Below are positions 23,353 to 35,810 of a stretch of DNA of 64,000 nucleotides, piece after piece. Position 1 is the first letter of the stretch. Each line of letters starts with the position of its first letter. Location: the NCBI RefSeq assembly GCF_009914755.1, contig NC_060940.1; one strand, 5' to 3'. Made by a program: the position numbers and the translations under genes. A model generated the notes under the pieces. It did not search any database, was not told the origin of the DNA, and saw only the letters and a list, made by a program, of their open reading frames with translations. The stretch is from the human T2T-CHM13v2.0 reference genome, Homo sapiens.

Positions 23353-23481
23353 GTGTAATCGATAGGAGAAAGTCAGGATGAGCTGCACACCGAGAACGTG
23401 CTCCGTGGACTGCAGGGGAAGCTCCAGCTTAAAATGTAACATGTCCGTCTTCCCATCCTGGTTCCTGTCTTCTTCTCTAGT
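23353..23481 (-). pseudogene. TMEM231P1: TMEM231P1 exon 3 (129 nt; [43 protein letters not shown])
   Basis: tag|ACTAGA...TTACAC|gtgagt; open frame, TMEM231-like peptide. Confidence 0.88.
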
Positions 23482-26400
23482 CTAGGAAACCCAAACAGGC
23501 CCAGCAGCCCTGGTCACTAATGAGTCTGGGAGGAATCCACATCACTTCTGTACATACACAATGACCCACTGTCCTGCTGTACACAAAAGAAAGAGGCATT
23601 ATCTCCCCCACTAAAAGAAAGAGAAAAATAGACAGGTGTAAGTGCATTAATACTGGGGAAAGAGGCACAAAGTGCATGGCCCCTGAACTTCATATCTGAG
23701 TCTTTCAAATGTTCACTGGACAAAATAAATGGGAACTTGAAGTGGCGATAACAAGACAAGAAACATGTGAATAGCATTTGTCTCATTTGATCTTTTTTTT
23801 TTTAAATTAAAAAAAAATTTTTTTTTTAAAGAGGTTCTCCCTATGTTGCCTAGGCTGGTCTTGAACTCCTGTGGTTAAGGGATCCTCCTGCCTTGGCCTC
23901 CCAAAGTGCTAAGATTACAGGGGTGAGCCACCATGCCCAGTCAGATCATATCTTGTTTGTTTTGTACTGGTGTTTTTTTTTCTTTTGCATAAACATGCCT
24001 GGATTTGTATGGAAAATTTAAATAGTGTATCAGAATTGTCTTCTATGCCTCTAGAAGCAACTTTTTAAAATAGAAAAACACCTAATCCTAATCATTATGC
24101 ATTCCCCCAACAAACTCAACAGAAAATCACCAAGCTCTATTTACACGTTCTGAAACCACAAGTGTCTTTGCTTCAGATTCTTGACGTTGGATCTCATCTC
24201 ATCATTCATGTGAGGCCCTGAAAGCCTTGTGCATCTTTAAGTAGCAATCAATGAAATGGAAAAGAAAGCTATGTCAAATCAGCAAAGCATTAAACCACAT
24301 CTGTAAGATAAATTATGGGCATGAAAGTAAGGAAAAGAAACAGAGATCTGTGGTGGAAAAAAAGACAAATTATAGCTCATGAAGCATATGTAGGCAGTAA
24401 AAAAAAAATTGGTATCCACTCCCACCATCCAGTCTGACCTCATAGTGACCCTAAAATGATCAGCAGAAAAAGACGGTTACTGAAAAGTGATCACTGCTGA
24501 CGTGGTCCCTCTGCACAACTCTGGATCTTTTTGCTACAAGTGATCCTTTCCCACCGTAGGTTCCCAGAAGGATTCTACTATGGTGTAGCAGCATTCCAAT
24601 CTGGATCCCCCATCTACTGATTCATTTTGATTCCCACCATTAATATTATGTGAGGAAAATAATTTTTGTACTTTTTTGGGCTAATAAAGTCATTTGAGAT
24701 GAAGAAATCTCAGTTTTCAGAAACTTTCAATTATTTATTTCCTTTAGACAATAATGTCCTTATTGTAGGTCTTGTTTTAGAGAAACCTCCCTCCCTTTTC
24801 TCTTGGATACTTCCTCTCTGCCCTGTTTCATCAGCTTCGGGGAGGGATATCTGCTACCCGGGCTGACGATCAAGTTACTGAGGCAATGATGGATTAGTCA
24901 TTATGGGTAGGATGAAAAGAGCCTGCCTTGTCTTCCTGTGGATTTTCTTCAATTGGGATCTGGGTAGACAATGTTGTGTAACTCTCTGTGACGGATCCAC
25001 GCCTTCCGGATCTTTAGGGTTGGACAGGAAGTAAAGATCACATTTCTCAACTTGCAACAGAGGACAGTGGCCAGGAGACAACTGCCAGACTCCAATACAC
25101 TGTGGGGCGTGGGGAGAAACTCATTTCATTTGATCTTTACAATAAATGTTAAGCCCCAGGTAGGCAGAACAAGTATTTTCCCATTACATAGATGAGAAAA
25201 TCATGGGTGAGGGAGGTTAGGGCATTTATCAGAGGTACAGCAAGTAATGGTGAAGACAGAATTTCAGATCAGGTCTTTGACTTCAAATGTGGTATCCTTT
25301 CCAGGACTAAAATATCCAGACTTACTTACTTATTTATTTATTTTTGAGCCGGAGTCTCACTCTGTTGCCCAGGCTGGAGTGCGGTGGCACGGTCTCAGCT
25401 CACTGCAACCTCCGCCTCCTGGGTTCAAGCAATTCTCCTGCCTCAGTCTCCTGAGTAGCTGGGATTACAGGCACCTGCCACTTCGCCCAGCTAATTTTTT
25501 TGTATATTTAGTAGAGATGGGGTTTCACCATGTTGGCCAGGCTGGTCTCGAACTCCTGACCTCGTGATCCGCCCGCCTTGGCCTCTCAAAGTGCTGGGAT
25601 TACAGGTGTGAGCCACGACACCCGGCCAGATTTATTTAAAAATTCAAAAAGAAGACAGTGGGTTGGAGAAGTCTTTTTGCAAAACGGCAGCACCAGGCAT
25701 CAAAGTCTGTATACTCGCCTGTGTGCATAATTCCGCTCCACGCTGAGAGAGGGCCCAGATGTGGCTCAGCACCATCAATAGTGTCTACTTGTTAAATTCA
25801 CTCATTAATCTGCTATGAACTTTTTGAGGCCCTACAGGCACTATTTCAGATGATGAGAATATAATCTAAACAAAACAGACAAAGTCTCCATCCTAATGGA
25901 GCTTATGTTCCCGACCAAGAAGACAGAAAATAGATTCATAAATATGCAACAATATCAAATAGTGATGAGTGCCACAGAGAAAAACAAGGCAGGCTAAAAT
26001 GAAAGAATAATGAAGGTAGAATTTAACAGAAAGTTTTACAGAAAATATTCAGGATGACCTGACTTGTTGGAGACCTGAAGGAAGCGAGGTGATGAGGTGA
26101 TGTGGTGCAGCAATGTCTCAGGGAAGAAAGATCTAGATTCACCAAGTGCATGTGCTCTAGGTGCCCATGGGGCCAGCAGAGCTGGCAGAATGGGTGAGAG
26201 GGAGAGCAGGACGGAGACAGGGGACAGAGAAGTGAAGACACAAAGGGTGTGTCTCCCAAAAACAACCTGTCACTAAGCTAGACTCTCACCCCTATGGGCT
26301 AGCAAGGTTTGGCTCTGTTATCACTTGGACCTCTGAAGAAATCAATTAGCTAATTCCATTTAGTTGAAAGTAAGCCTAACGTATGTGCAACAGCTACAAA

Positions 26401-32975: not shown

Positions 32976-34779
32976 CAGGTTATGTATTTACCACCAAATT
33001 CTCATCTATTTGGGGTCAAGGGCCACGCCTCCTATCTGCTTATACCTCCAGGTCAGAGCCTGCACTTGGCCAAATGTATACACATTGAATGAATGATCCG
33101 TGGTATCCAACACCTTGAAGTTATATATCCATAAAAATAATCTTAAACTTAAGTACACAATGCAGTTTAAAATTTTCAGAACAATTTCTGAGATCAAAAC
33201 AATTCTCATGCATACAGATCCTCTACTTTGGTACATTAAAACTATCATCCTAAATCCACTTATCTCAATCTTTTCTTAATGAAATAAAAGTGAACTAAAA
33301 GCCAGAAGAGTCAACAGAATATTCAGTTCCAAAGTATCACCCCATATAGGACTGTTAATTAAGAGAGGGTTCAGGTACCCTTACAATGGAGAGAGCTGAC
33401 AGACACCATCTTCACGAAAGGATCAAACTTGTCAACAAAGGTATAAACTGACATCTCTTAAGGTGATCCACTGACAAGTGTACATCACCTATGAAGGTGG
33501 CATTCTGAACAAAAAATCTGAATCTAATAATGAAGAAAATCAGAGGAAGCTAGATTGTAAACATTCTATGAAACAATTGGCATAGGCCAGGCATGGTGGC
33601 TCAAGCCTGTAATCCCAACACTTTGAAAGGCCGAGGTGGGTGGGTCACTTGAGATCAGGAGTTCCAGACCAGCCTAGCCAACATGGTGAAACCCTGTCTC
33701 TACTAAAAAAAAAAAAAAAAAAAAATAGCTGGGCATGGTGTGCATGCCTGTAATCCCAGCTACTCGGGAGGCTGAGGCAGGAGAATGGTGTGAACCCAGG
33801 AGGTGGAGCTTGCAGTGAGCCGAGATCGAGCTACTGCACTGCAGCCTGGGAGACAGAGCGAGACTCCGCCTCAAAAAAAAAAGGCTGGGCGGGCAGGCTC
33901 ACACCTGTAATCCCAACACTTTGGGAAGCCGAGGCAGGCAGATCACCTGAGGTTGGGAGTTGACGACCAACGTGACCAACATGGAGAAACCCCGTCTCTA
34001 CTAAAAATACAAAATTAGCCAGGCGTGGTGGTGCATGCCTGTAATCCCAGGTACTCGGGAGCCTGTGACAGGAGAATCGCTTGAATCTAGGAGGGGGAGG
34101 TTGCAGTGAGCCGAGATCGCGCCATTGTACTCCAGCCTGGGCAACAAGAGCTAAACTCCGTCTCAAAAATAAATAAATAAGGCAACAAAAACAGATTAAT
34201 CTGGTCCCAGTAGTGTCTCCAGATTGCACGAACATTTCATTTTTCACACAGGGTCACCAGAATACCATCAATTTTTTGGTATCACTGTCAAAAGTGATCC
34301 TAGCACCTTCTGAAATAACGTGAGCTGCCAGATTCTCATTTCAGGAATGACCACAAGCGAACATCTGCATCTGACCCCAACCTGCCTGATGACCTTACCC
34401 GCTACTTCACAATCCCGTCCAGGAAAATCCCTGGGCACATAACACTGCAAGTCCCAGGTGTCCGCTGAAGGGCGCCTGGCAGTCACTGCCCAGGGGATGA
34501 GAAATCACAGGTGCCTTGTTTGGAACTAGAGTCTGGAATCTCGTCCTCCTTCCCTCTGCTCTGGTCCCTCATTGTTTATGAAGACCTCAGTCCCCTCTGC
34601 TGGGAGCCCCACCTCCCCTTTCAGGGCCACGGGCCCCAGTCTTCTTGCCTTTCAAGGACCACACAAATAACTGTGCCTCCCCTCAAAGCTTTTCTCCTCC
34701 TTCCCAGGTGAAGTCCTCTCTCCTCCCTCCAGCTTTCAGGGCACGGAGCGTTCTTTCTGGCATTGGAATTCTGAGCAAC

Positions 34780-35810
34780 CCTCCTAGCAGGCCCAGCTCA
34801 AGCCGCAGCGGGGAGGAAGAGTTCAAAGGAAGCTGTGCCAAAGATCTCGAAGGCTTAGTGGGAGACCCAGCAACAGGTGGCACCAGGTCTGGGAAAGAGA
34901 CTCCTAGAAAGCGGAGCGGGTCTCGGAGGGGGTGGATTTGGCCCGAGGTGCCCGCGATCAGCGAACGAGCGCCCGCACGGAGGAGCCGGGCTGCAGCTCC
35001 CGGGCAAGGGGAGCGCGAGCTCTGACTCCTCAGCCGGGCCGGGCCGGGCCGCTCCGAGGCCCCTCGAAGGAGGCCGGGCGCCGTGGGGCAACCCAGGCAG
35101 GGCGCGGACCACCGCCTCCCGGGCTCGTGGGGTGCAGCTCTGAACCTGAGGCGCTCGGAAGCTCAAGGCCAAGACCCGCTCGGGTGGTGGCCGAGCGCCC
35201 TCCAGCCCCGGGTCCACCTGCGGCCGCTCCCTGCACCTCACGCCCAGCGGGGCTCCGGGGACCTGCCTCAGGGACCGGCGAGGAAGTGACGGGTAAAGGG
35301 GTCCGGGAGAGCAAAGGGACCCCCCTCCGGGAGGACAGCGCCCACCCAGCAGGTCAGCGGCACACCGGGGACGCCGCCCGGACTCGGGGCGCCCATAACC
35401 CGGCCCACCCGCCGCTGCTGTCGCTTCCCTAGAGCTCCATCCGGTCGCCATTCACCACTGAGTTAAGGGACCAGCTACCGAAGGGCAGCAGCGGCCAGCC
35501 ACCAGCCCCCTCGCCGCCTCAGCGTCACTCCACCCGAGACCCTCTTCCTCCAATCCCAACGGCGCTGCCAAGTGACCGTTCCCTCCTCCAATGAGAAGGC
35601 GCTCCAGCCGGCGGGGGCAGAGCCAGAGTTGTTCCCGCCCCTGAGGTTGCGCAGGGCTAGCACAGACCCACCCCCTCGGACGCGCGCTATCCTGGAGAAG
35701 CGGCCCCTGCCCGCGAACTGCGCGCTCTGCTCTGCCCTTCTCTGCAGCGCCCCCTGTAGGAAAGAAGGGAATTGCATGCGGCCCCCCCGCCCCCGGCCAG
35801 AGCTGTGGAT
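34780..35810. promoter_or_regulatory. CpG island without an intact gene; probable duplicated TMEM170A promoter
   Basis: Very high GC and CpG content; GC boxes; CTCF-like CCTACAGGGGGCGCT on the minus strand at 35746-35760. Confidence 0.75.
35396..35440 (-). pseudogene. Decayed TMEM170A-like exon 1 start (M E L * G S D S S G G W A G L)
   Basis: ATGGAGCTCTAGGGAAGCGACAGCAGCGGCGGGTGGGCCGGGTTA aligns codon by codon to the recalled TMEM170A N-terminus MEREGSGGSGGSAGL, with TAG at codon 4. TMEM170A is the minus-strand neighbour beyond CHST6. Confidence 0.65.

What the first reader, a model, noticed from the sequence alone, without database searches (positions are those of the whole stretch)
23353..35810. 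Duplication junction puts a TMEM170A-like promoter/exon 1 upstream of TMEM231 exons 3-7: candidate chimeric transcription unit
Seen: the pseudogene starts at exon 3 with an intact acceptor and has no TMEM231 exons 1-2. About 12 kb upstream on the same strand is a CpG island whose ATG at 35440 reads MEL*GSDSSGGWAGL. Recalled: TMEM170A starts MEREGSGGSGGSAGL and is the minus-strand neighbour beyond CHST6. Inference: the duplicated unit ran from TMEM170A intron 1 to TMEM231 intron 2, fusing a TMEM170A promoter to TMEM231 exons 3-7. The island has kept its CpGs, which suggests it is still unmethylated in the germline and may be active. Candidate donors are GGC|GTGAGG near 35242 and CGG|GTAAGG at 34399. 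The relic may already be annotated as a pseudogene.
Basis: partly seen in the sequence, partly recalled or inferred. Interest (0 to 1): 0.8.

Follow-up and report, generated by a model that had tools for sequence, protein, structure and literature searches.

The report
Decayed TMEM170A–TMEM231 fusion at duplication junction
An old tandem duplication on human chromosome 16 joined a copy of the TMEM170A promoter and first exon to TMEM231 exons 3-7, but the fusion could never encode a fusion protein and has since decayed, leaving only a well-kept CpG island whose present activity is untested.

Summary
Window 34175-35920 (minus strand) is a copy of the TMEM170A promoter, exon 1 and start of intron 1 (E 3.9e-76 and 8.6e-64). 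Homology then runs collinearly through 8 kb of TMEM170A intron 1 and switches at 26638|26639 to TMEM231 intron 2, 3.2 kb upstream of TMEM231P1 exon 3. This is the single junction of the head-to-tail duplication that made CHST5 and CHST6. The join shares at most 1 nt and holds no Alu.

- TMEM170A exon 1 ends in phase 1 and TMEM231 exon 3 starts in phase 0, so the splice reads a stop 5 nt into exon 3.
- The relic has a stop at codon 4 and a 145-nt deletion that removes the native splice donor.
- About half of the island lies in a 92-100% identical gene-conversion tract.

The unconverted promoter half still has CpG o/e 0.73-0.77, against 0.20-0.34 in the flank. Its longest conserved block covers the transcription-start equivalent. 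A hypomethylated, promoter-like island is therefore likely. A spliced transcript into exon 3 is possible, would be noncoding, and cannot be tested here. This is an ordinary kind of relic, apparently undescribed.

The parts
35574..35920 (-). Relic of the TMEM170A upstream promoter, unconverted (about 81% identity to the parent at -19367..-19035)
35550..35580 (-). 31-nt block identical to the parent. It holds the equivalent (35573) of the RefSeq TMEM170A transcription start (-19368) and sits just downstream of a conserved CCAAT-type box
   Evidence: longest run; 0.036 of 20000 shuffles reach it
35400..35573 (-). Remnant of TMEM170A exon 1: the 5' UTR plus the first 41 nt of coding sequence. ATG at 35440-35438, TAG at codon 4 (35431-35429)
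35399..35400 (-). Site of a 145-nt deletion relative to the parent (-19546..-19690). It removes the last 92 nt of exon 1, the native GT donor and 53 nt of intron 1
34880..35800 (.). CpG island (921 nt, GC 0.716, 87 CpG, o/e 0.74). RefSeq lists a silencer feature at 34980-35419 inside it (hub table)
   Evidence: hub table
34175..35275 (-). Gene-conversion tract, 92-100% identical per 100-nt window to TMEM170A intron 1 (-20906 to about -19815). It is bounded on the left by an Alu pair that only the relic has
34391..34402 (-). Best candidate donor downstream of the start equivalent (CGG|GTAAGG, last exonic base 34399). An identical site lies in the parent's intron 1 at -20686
   Evidence: matrix recalled from memory
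26639..35399 (-). Relic of the first ~8.2 kb of TMEM170A intron 1. It is collinear with -27806..-19691, carries Alus of its own, and has a second high-identity tract at 26656-27244 (95%)
26630..26656 (.). Duplication junction. TMEM231 intron 2 homology ends at 26638 (parent 67763). TMEM170A intron 1 homology starts at 26639 (parent -27806). Microhomology is at most 1 nt
23482..26638 (-). Relic of the last 3.2 kb of TMEM231 intron 2 (parent 64208-67763)
23353..23481 (-). TMEM231P1 exon 3: 129 of 129 nt identical to the parent, acceptor and donor intact, inside a 99-100% conversion tract
17786..23022 (-). TMEM231P1 exons 4-7. Exon 4 is 143 of 144 identical. The exon 5 acceptor is shifted by 1 nt and its donor weakened. 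Exon 6 has a 1-nt deletion. The AC end of the U12-type intron before exon 7 is lost

Best explanation
The stretch is the single junction of an old head-to-tail tandem duplication. Today the two units are 26639-67763 (41.1 kb) and -27806..26638 (54.4 kb). This duplication produced CHST5 and CHST6.

One breakpoint lay 8.2 kb into TMEM170A intron 1. The other lay 3.6 kb upstream of TMEM231 exon 3. The ends were joined without homology. As a result, a copy of the TMEM170A promoter, exon 1 and proximal intron 1 sits on the same strand, 12.1 kb upstream of TMEM231 exons 3-7 (TMEM231P1).

The fusion could not encode a TMEM170A-TMEM231 protein. Exon 1 ends in phase 1 and exon 3 begins in phase 0, so the spliced frame stops at the second codon that touches exon 3. 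It has decayed since:
- a stop at codon 4 of the relic exon 1
- loss of the native donor in a 145-nt deletion
- splice and frame defects in TMEM231P1 exons 5-7

Patches of both relics are kept 92-100% identical to their parent genes by interlocus gene conversion.

The relic CpG island has resisted CpG decay, even where it is as diverged as neutral sequence. This is inferred to mean long-term germline hypomethylation, that is, a surviving promoter-like or factor-bound element. Any RNA it makes is noncoding.

Shown: homology, junction, frames and lesions, CpG statistics, identity mosaic. Inferred: age, gene conversion as the cause of the mosaic, hypomethylation. Untested: present-day transcription and splicing into exon 3.
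For: Homology and junction:
- there are only 3 genome matches, the query itself and two pieces at the TMEM170A 5' end.
- a collinear chain covers both units (28,067 aligned nt, mean identity 84%).
- the switch is at 26638|26639. The 8 nt at 26639-26646 equal the 8 nt that directly precede a truncated Alu in the parent. The relic lacks that Alu.
- TMEM231 exons 1-2 lie outside the unit.

Frames and lesions:
- exon 1 holds 133 coding nt. Exons 3-7 hold 642 nt and are in frame from the first base.
- the joined frame stops at codon 46, 5 nt into exon 3.
- the relic has a stop at codon 4 and a 145-nt deletion that includes the donor.
- lesions in exons 5-7.

Identity mosaic and age:
- baseline K2P is 0.17-0.24, against tracts of 0.025-0.054.
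- 13 of 38 Alu-like intervals of unit A sit between tight anchors with no Alu in that orientation in the matching gap of unit B. The one tightly anchored candidate for a shared Alu has different target-site duplications in the two copies.
- PMC7353957 (passages) places the CHST6 duplication in a primate ancestor.
- PMC10266321 (passages) reports pathogenic gene conversion between TMEM231 and its downstream pseudogene.

CpG island:
- island o/e is 0.74, with 0.73-0.77 across 35400-35799. In the 81%-identity promoter piece, 25 CpGs are shared.
- the longest identical run covers the start-site equivalent.
Against: - No outgroup genome was available. The polarity of changes, the direction and age of the conversions, and the ancestral state of the 5 nt that decide the frame therefore rest on present-day copies. 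For those 5 nt, both copies of exon 3 are identical.
- The relic island is eroded relative to the parent: 87 against 115 CpGs, o/e 0.74 against 0.84. In the promoter piece 22 CpGs are parent-only and 9 are relic-only.
- The run-length test is only marginal (0.036).
- CpG retention shows lack of methylation at best, not promoter activity.
- RefSeq's T2T table lists no transcript starting in the island.
- 8 of the 9 Alu pairs flagged as possibly shared, and 13 ambiguous ones, were not resolved.
Confidence: 0.85

Rival explanations
1. The relic TMEM170A promoter is active and drives a spliced chimeric transcript, from a cryptic donor in or below the island (for example 34399) into TMEM231P1 exon 3 at 23481. 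The product would be a primate-specific noncoding RNA.
For: - Promoter and exons are on the same strand. The exon 3 acceptor is identical to the functional one.
- The CpG island is kept and the core block around the start equivalent is conserved.
- A good donor lies at 34399 (score 5.2 against 4.4 for the native donor). There is no AATAAA or ATTAAA between 35600 and 32221.
- TMEM231P1 (ENSG00000262583) was treated as an expressed noncoding gene and assayed with primers that I located in exons 6 and 7, across an intron (PMC10369730, passages and section 21).
Against: - The native donor is deleted.
- No donor scoring above 1.8 lies within 960 nt of the start equivalent, so the first exon would be about 1.0-1.2 kb.
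- The 34399 site exists unchanged in the parent's intron 1 and is not an annotated donor there.
- The RefSeq table has no such transcript.
- The paper's heat map is a figure I could not see, so detection of TMEM231P1 RNA is not confirmed. Its primers also say nothing about the 5' end.
Confidence: 0.3
2. The island is unmethylated but not a productive promoter. It would be an orphan CpG island held open or repressed by bound factors (Polycomb or a CTCF-type insulator), acting as a silencer or boundary between the CHST5 and CHST6 regulatory domains.
For: - RefSeq lists a silencer feature at 34980-35419 inside the island (hub table; I could not see the underlying experiment).
- A 20-nt block at 35738-35757 is identical in both copies. 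It resembles the CTCF core motif as I recall it.
- CpG retention is explained equally well by this reading.
- Upstream rearrangements between CHST5 and CHST6 cause macular corneal dystrophy type II (PMC5082643, PMC2695576, PMC6382428, passages).
Against: - The motif likeness is recalled, not scored.
- The coordinates of the disease deletions were not available, so overlap with the island is not shown.
- The best-conserved block is the start-site block, which fits a promoter better.
Confidence: 0.3
3. The island is methylated and silent. It looks CpG-rich only because gene conversion keeps recopying it from the unmethylated TMEM170A island.
For: 34175 to about 35275 is 92-100% identical to the parent. 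This covers roughly 400 of the island's 921 nt. In this tract CpG differences are symmetric: 16 parent-only against 12 relic-only.
Against: 35275-35920 is at baseline divergence (74-87% per window) yet keeps o/e 0.69-0.77. The flank at 34200-34799 has o/e 0.20-0.34, and most of it (34200 to about 34775) reads 96-99% identical to the parent, so conversion alone does not make CpG richness.
Confidence: 0.12

Closest known systems
Chimeric genes born at the junction of incomplete segmental duplications (HYDIN2 and CHRFAM7A as I recall them; neither was read here)
   Same: A partial copy of one gene's 3' exons is placed behind another gene's promoter and first exon by the duplication join itself, on one strand.
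   Different: Here the phases do not match, so no fusion reading frame ever existed. Both halves are now disabled. No transcript evidence was available.
TMEM231P1 and its gene conversion with TMEM231 (Maglic 2016 and Watson 2020, seen only as cited and summarised in PMC10266321)
   Same: It is the same pseudogene. The 99-100% tracts over exons 3-4 and exon 7 are what such conversion leaves behind.
   Different: The passages I read speak only of a downstream pseudogene. They do not mention its upstream end, the junction, or the TMEM170A relic. I also find conversion-like tracts on the TMEM170A side (34175-35275, 26656-27244).
CHST5/CHST6 local duplication in a primate ancestor (PMC7353957, passages)
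   Same: It is the same event. Baseline divergence (K2P about 0.2) and Alus private to each copy fit that age.
   Different: That paper works with the sulfotransferase genes and synteny. TMEM170A occurs 0 times in its main text. Unit ends and the join are mapped here.
Orphan CpG islands, and relic promoters of unprocessed pseudogenes (general knowledge, recalled)
   Same: It is a CpG island with no annotated gene that meets the usual length, GC and o/e criteria.
   Different: Its origin is known exactly. It can be compared base by base with its live parent 55 kb away.

Membership tests
Tandem segmental duplication with a chimeric junction gene | Two collinear paralogous units lying head to tail | tested here: met
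   the chain runs from 26656/-27620 to 67763/26638, with 28,067 aligned nt.
Tandem segmental duplication with a chimeric junction gene | One junction joins the distal end of the unit to its proximal start, and homology to both parents stops there | tested here: met
   the junction is at 26638|26639. Beyond it, parent sequences 67764+ and -27807 downward do not match.
Tandem segmental duplication with a chimeric junction gene | 5' part of gene A (promoter and exon 1) and 3' part of gene B on one strand, in order | tested here: met
Tandem segmental duplication with a chimeric junction gene | Open reading frame across the exon 1 to exon 3 splice | tested here: not met
   phase 1 meets phase 0, with a stop 5 nt into exon 3. 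The relic also has a stop at codon 4.
Tandem segmental duplication with a chimeric junction gene | A chimeric transcript exists | not testable with these tools
   No RNA data were on hand. Literature searches gave no description.
CpG island (length, GC and o/e criteria as I recall them: at least 500 nt, GC at least 0.55, o/e at least 0.65) | Length, GC content and observed/expected CpG | tested here: met
   921 nt, GC 0.716, o/e 0.74.
Active CpG-island promoter | Unmethylated DNA, H3K4me3, capped transcripts from the start site | not testable with these tools
   There is only indirect sequence evidence: CpG retention and a conserved start-site block.
Active CpG-island promoter | A usable 5' splice site close to the start | tested here: not met
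   the native donor is deleted. The best site within 960 nt scores 1.8. The first good sites are at 34613 (3.6) and 34399 (5.2). The matrix is recalled and rough.
Unprocessed pseudogene (TMEM231P1) | Introns retained, parent exons recognisable, disabling lesions present | tested here: met
Interlocus gene-conversion tracts | Sharp-edged patches of near identity, introns included, within an old diverged duplication | tested here: met
   Conversion at this locus is in print. Direction and dates could not be tested without an outgroup.

The most novel reading that the evidence does not exclude
The relic TMEM170A promoter has stayed alive for tens of millions of years after losing its gene. Its core start-site block is under constraint and its island has been unmethylated throughout. 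It now serves a new role. Either it is the promoter of a primate-specific noncoding transcript that splices into TMEM231P1 exon 3 (and may run on toward CHST6), or it is a silencer or boundary element that separates gut-type CHST5 from cornea-type CHST6 regulation. In the second case it would lie in the interval where macular corneal dystrophy type II rearrangements occur.
Probability: 0.2. Interest if true: 0.5.

Novelty: new member of a known kind. Interest (0 to 1): 0.3.

Why it matters
This is a base-level account of how the CHST5/CHST6 duplication was made, and of the fusion gene it created and lost. It has four practical consequences:

- It names an unannotated TMEM170A promoter/exon-1 relic that can mislead read mapping and variant calling at TMEM170A. 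TMEM231P1 is already known to cause the same trouble for TMEM231.
- It shows conversion-like tracts on the TMEM170A side of the duplication as well as the TMEM231 side.
- It gives a clean natural experiment. A CpG-island promoter was cut off from its gene about one primate age ago and can be compared directly with its live parent 55 kb away.
- If the island is still active or factor-bound, it is a candidate regulatory element in the interval whose rearrangement causes macular corneal dystrophy type II.

Tried and rejected
- Alu-mediated unequal crossing-over as the cause of the join was rejected. The junction holds no Alu. The Alu that abuts the breakpoint in TMEM170A intron 1 is absent from the relic, so it arrived later.
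- A shared, pre-duplication Alu at 29837-30128 / -25210..-24914 was rejected. The two copies have different target-site duplications about 100 nt apart.
- The 17 nt at 26639-26655 as untemplated filler was rejected. Its first 8 nt match the parent just before the Alu. The other 9 nt were lost in the parent along with the Alu's 3' half.
- Rfam at gathering scores over 23000-36500 gave 0 matches.
- Literature searches:
  - 'TMEM231P1' found 2 papers. In one of them (PMC12519442) the term was not in the held part of the text.
  - 'RP11-77K12' or 'AC009163' found 14 papers. The two I opened concern other genes of that clone.
  - TMEM170A + pseudogene + CHST5 found 0 papers.
  - TMEM170A + TMEM231 + segmental duplication found 0 papers.
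- Primers for RP11-77K12.9 do not lie in the 120 kb examined.
- No paper supplements were opened. The additional files of PMC10369730 (GTEx correlations) might show TMEM231P1 expression.

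
Full report
**Observation**

The surrounding 34880-35800 is a CpG island: 921 nt, GC 0.716, 87 CpGs, o/e 0.74. The adjoining 34200-34799 has o/e 0.20-0.34.

A search of the window's own genome with 35150-35650 gave 3 matches. One is the query. The other two are adjacent pieces at chr16 positions that correspond to window -19291..-19546 and -19686..-19942, which is the annotated 5' end of TMEM170A. 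Identities are 82% and 85%, with E 8.6e-64 and 3.9e-76.

**The duplication and its junction**

I fetched 40 kb below and 16 kb above the window and compared the stretch with itself.

- From 35920 downward, the relic is collinear with the TMEM170A promoter, exon 1 and the first ~8.2 kb of intron 1, ending at 26656 = -27620.
- From 26638 downward, it is collinear with TMEM231 intron 2 (26638 = 67763), and then with TMEM231 exons 3-7.
- The same chain continues through CHST5/CHST6, so there are two head-to-tail units: 26639-67763 (41,125 nt) and -27806..26638 (54,445 nt). The chain holds 28,067 aligned nt at a mean identity of 84%.

The 17 nt between the two BLAST ends are not filler.

- The first 8 nt (26639-26646) equal the 8 nt that directly precede a truncated Alu in TMEM170A intron 1.
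- That Alu spans -27798..-27621 and holds Alu positions 1-180 only.
- The relic lacks it, so it inserted in the parent after the duplication. It later lost its 3' half together with 9 nt of flank.

The join is therefore 26638|26639 with at most 1 nt of shared sequence. This is a non-homologous join, not Alu-mediated recombination.

A Pfam TM231 six-frame search puts TMEM231 exons 1-2 at 74045-74456, outside the unit. Near TMEM231P1 it finds only model positions 104-146, 145-197 and 255-300.

**What the fusion could encode**

In the parent, the ATG is at -19505 and exon 1 ends at -19637, followed by a GT donor. That gives 133 coding nt, which is phase 1.

TMEM231 exon 3 truly starts at 64207 (23481 in the pseudogene), behind an AG. 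This is 9 nt inside RefSeq's pseudogene block. Exons 3-7 total 642 nt and are in frame from the first base, which is phase 0.

Joining exon 1 to exon 3 in silico from the present-day parents gives one more codon and then a stop, at codon 46, 5 nt into exon 3. Four exon junctions lie downstream of it. Both copies of exon 3 are identical at those bases. The fusion was therefore closed as a fusion protein from birth. This last step is an inference, because the ancestral state is taken from present-day copies.

**Decay since the duplication**

- The relic exon 1 has a stop at codon 4.
- Relative to the parent, the relic has a 145-nt deletion (-19546..-19690). It removes the last 92 nt of exon 1, the native donor and 53 nt of intron.
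- In TMEM231P1:
  - Exon 3 is 129 of 129 and exon 4 is 143 of 144 identical to TMEM231, with intact splice sites.
  - The exon 5 acceptor AG has moved by 1 nt (81 instead of 82 nt), and its donor is weakened.
  - Exon 6 has a 1-nt deletion.
  - The intron before exon 7 has lost its terminal AC.

**A mosaic of identity**

Per-block Kimura distances fall into two classes.

- A baseline of 0.17-0.24. Examples are 35399-35920 at 0.224, 27724-28194 at 0.240, the CHST5/CHST6 coding block at 0.191, and 67146-67763 at 0.194.
- Sharp-edged tracts at 0.025-0.054, with 100-nt windows of 96-100%. These are 34175 to about 35275, 26656-27244, 22890-23600 (exons 3-4 with their introns), 16900-18100 (exon 7 region) and 20300-20970.

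Because introns are included, I read these tracts as interlocus gene conversion. Pathogenic conversion between TMEM231 and its downstream pseudogene is in print (Maglic 2016 and Watson 2020, as summarised in PMC10266321; passages). The tracts on the TMEM170A side were not mentioned in anything I read.

The baseline distance fits the placement of the CHST6 duplication in a primate ancestor (PMC7353957, passages). Converting distance into years would rest on recalled rates.

Alus agree with an old event.

- Of 38 Alu-like intervals in unit A, 13 lie between tight anchors whose matching gap in unit B holds no Alu in that orientation.
- 3 more were classed as unshared, but unit B has Alus elsewhere in the gap.
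- 9 were flagged as possibly shared, and 13 were ambiguous.
- The only tightly anchored candidate among the 9 proved to be two independent insertions with different target-site duplications. The other 8 were not resolved.

**Is the island alive?**

The conversion tract covers 34175 to about 35275, which is about 400 of the island's 921 nt. In it, CpG differences are symmetric: 16 parent-only and 12 relic-only.

The other half (35275-35920) is at baseline divergence, at 74-87% per window. It still has o/e 0.69-0.77.

- In the 507 aligned columns of the promoter piece, 25 CpGs are shared, 22 are parent-only and 9 are relic-only.
- The relic is therefore eroded relative to the parent, at o/e 0.74 against 0.84.
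- It is nonetheless far from the 0.20-0.34 of its own flank.

I infer long-term germline hypomethylation.

The longest identical run in this piece is 31 nt (35550-35580), and 0.036 of 20,000 shuffles reach that length. It contains the equivalent (35573) of the RefSeq TMEM170A start (-19368), next to a conserved CCAAT-type box. This is modest evidence that the core promoter is kept.

Two points weigh against productive splicing.

- No donor above 1.8 lies within 960 nt of the start equivalent, on a rough matrix recalled from memory.
- The first good sites are 34613 (3.6) and 34399 (5.2). Both are also present, unused, in the parent's intron 1.

In favour, no AATAAA or ATTAAA occurs from 35600 down to 32221.

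RefSeq lists a silencer feature at 34980-35419 (hub table). I could not see the experiment behind it.

TMEM231P1 (ENSG00000262583, RP11-77K12.5) was assayed as a noncoding RNA with primers that I located in exons 6 and 7, across an intron (PMC10369730, passages and section 21). The result is in a figure that is not held, and it says nothing about the 5' end.

**Comparison and novelty**

The kind is well known: an incomplete segmental duplication that fuses one gene's promoter and first exon to another gene's 3' exons. Here the result is an out-of-frame, now disabled product.

TMEM231P1, its conversions, the CHST5/CHST6 duplication and the upstream rearrangements of macular corneal dystrophy type II are all in print (passages in PMC5082643, PMC2695576 and PMC6382428).

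In the searched library I found no description of the TMEM170A relic, of the breakpoints, or of the frame mismatch. Searches returned 0 papers, and TMEM170A occurs 0 times in PMC7353957. Subscription journals and paper supplements were not searched.

I file it as a new member of a known kind, with low to moderate interest.

**Limits**

No outgroup genomes and no RNA, methylation or chromatin data were available. The activity of the island therefore remains open between three readings: a noncoding chimeric transcript (about 0.3), a factor-bound orphan island (about 0.3), and a silent island kept CpG-rich only by conversion (about 0.12).

Noticed in passing
window 58432-59607 (TMEM231 intron 6) and 18172-18526 (TMEM231P1): TMEM231 intron 6 is a U12-type AT-AC intron. 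The donor starts ATATCCTT at 59607. A TCCTTAAC branch site lies about 10 nt before the AC end at 58433-58432. In the pseudogene the donor is kept, the branch site has one change and the terminal AC is lost. TMEM231 is listed as a U12 gene in PMC9992838 (passages).
   Followed up: partly
window 23482-23490: RefSeq's first TMEM231P1 block (23353-23490) runs 9 nt past the true exon 3 acceptor. The homologous exon starts at 23481, behind an AG.
   Followed up: yes
window 16455-18197, 19884-20970, 22791-23733 and their partners 56728-58465, 60001-61086, 63517-64447: Tracts with 100-nt windows of up to 100% identity between TMEM231P1 and TMEM231. These are likely the substrates of the published pathogenic conversions, and possibly of the unequal exchanges upstream of CHST6 in macular corneal dystrophy type II. 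Overlap with published breakpoints was not checked.
   Followed up: partly
window 35738-35757 (parent -19190..-19209): A 20-nt block about 170 nt upstream of the start equivalent is identical in relic and parent. It resembles the CTCF core motif as I recall it. It was not scored against any matrix.
   Followed up: no
window 43094-44231 versus -8659..-7522: Sequence 2.5-3.7 kb beyond the annotated CHST5 3' end is homologous to part of the CHST6 last exon (3' UTR). Its first ~500 nt are 92-96% identical. Either CHST5 lost a long 3' UTR, or it has an unannotated extension, or this is another conversion tract.
   Followed up: no
L005/L006, window -27798..-27621 (TMEM170A intron 1): A truncated Alu (positions 1-180 only) sits exactly at the parental breakpoint and hid 17 nt of homology from BLAST. 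It post-dates the duplication.
   Followed up: yes
window -19433 (TMEM170A 5' UTR): The parent has a strong donor-like site (score 5.8 on the rough matrix) in its 5' UTR upstream of the ATG. The relic has lost it.
   Followed up: no
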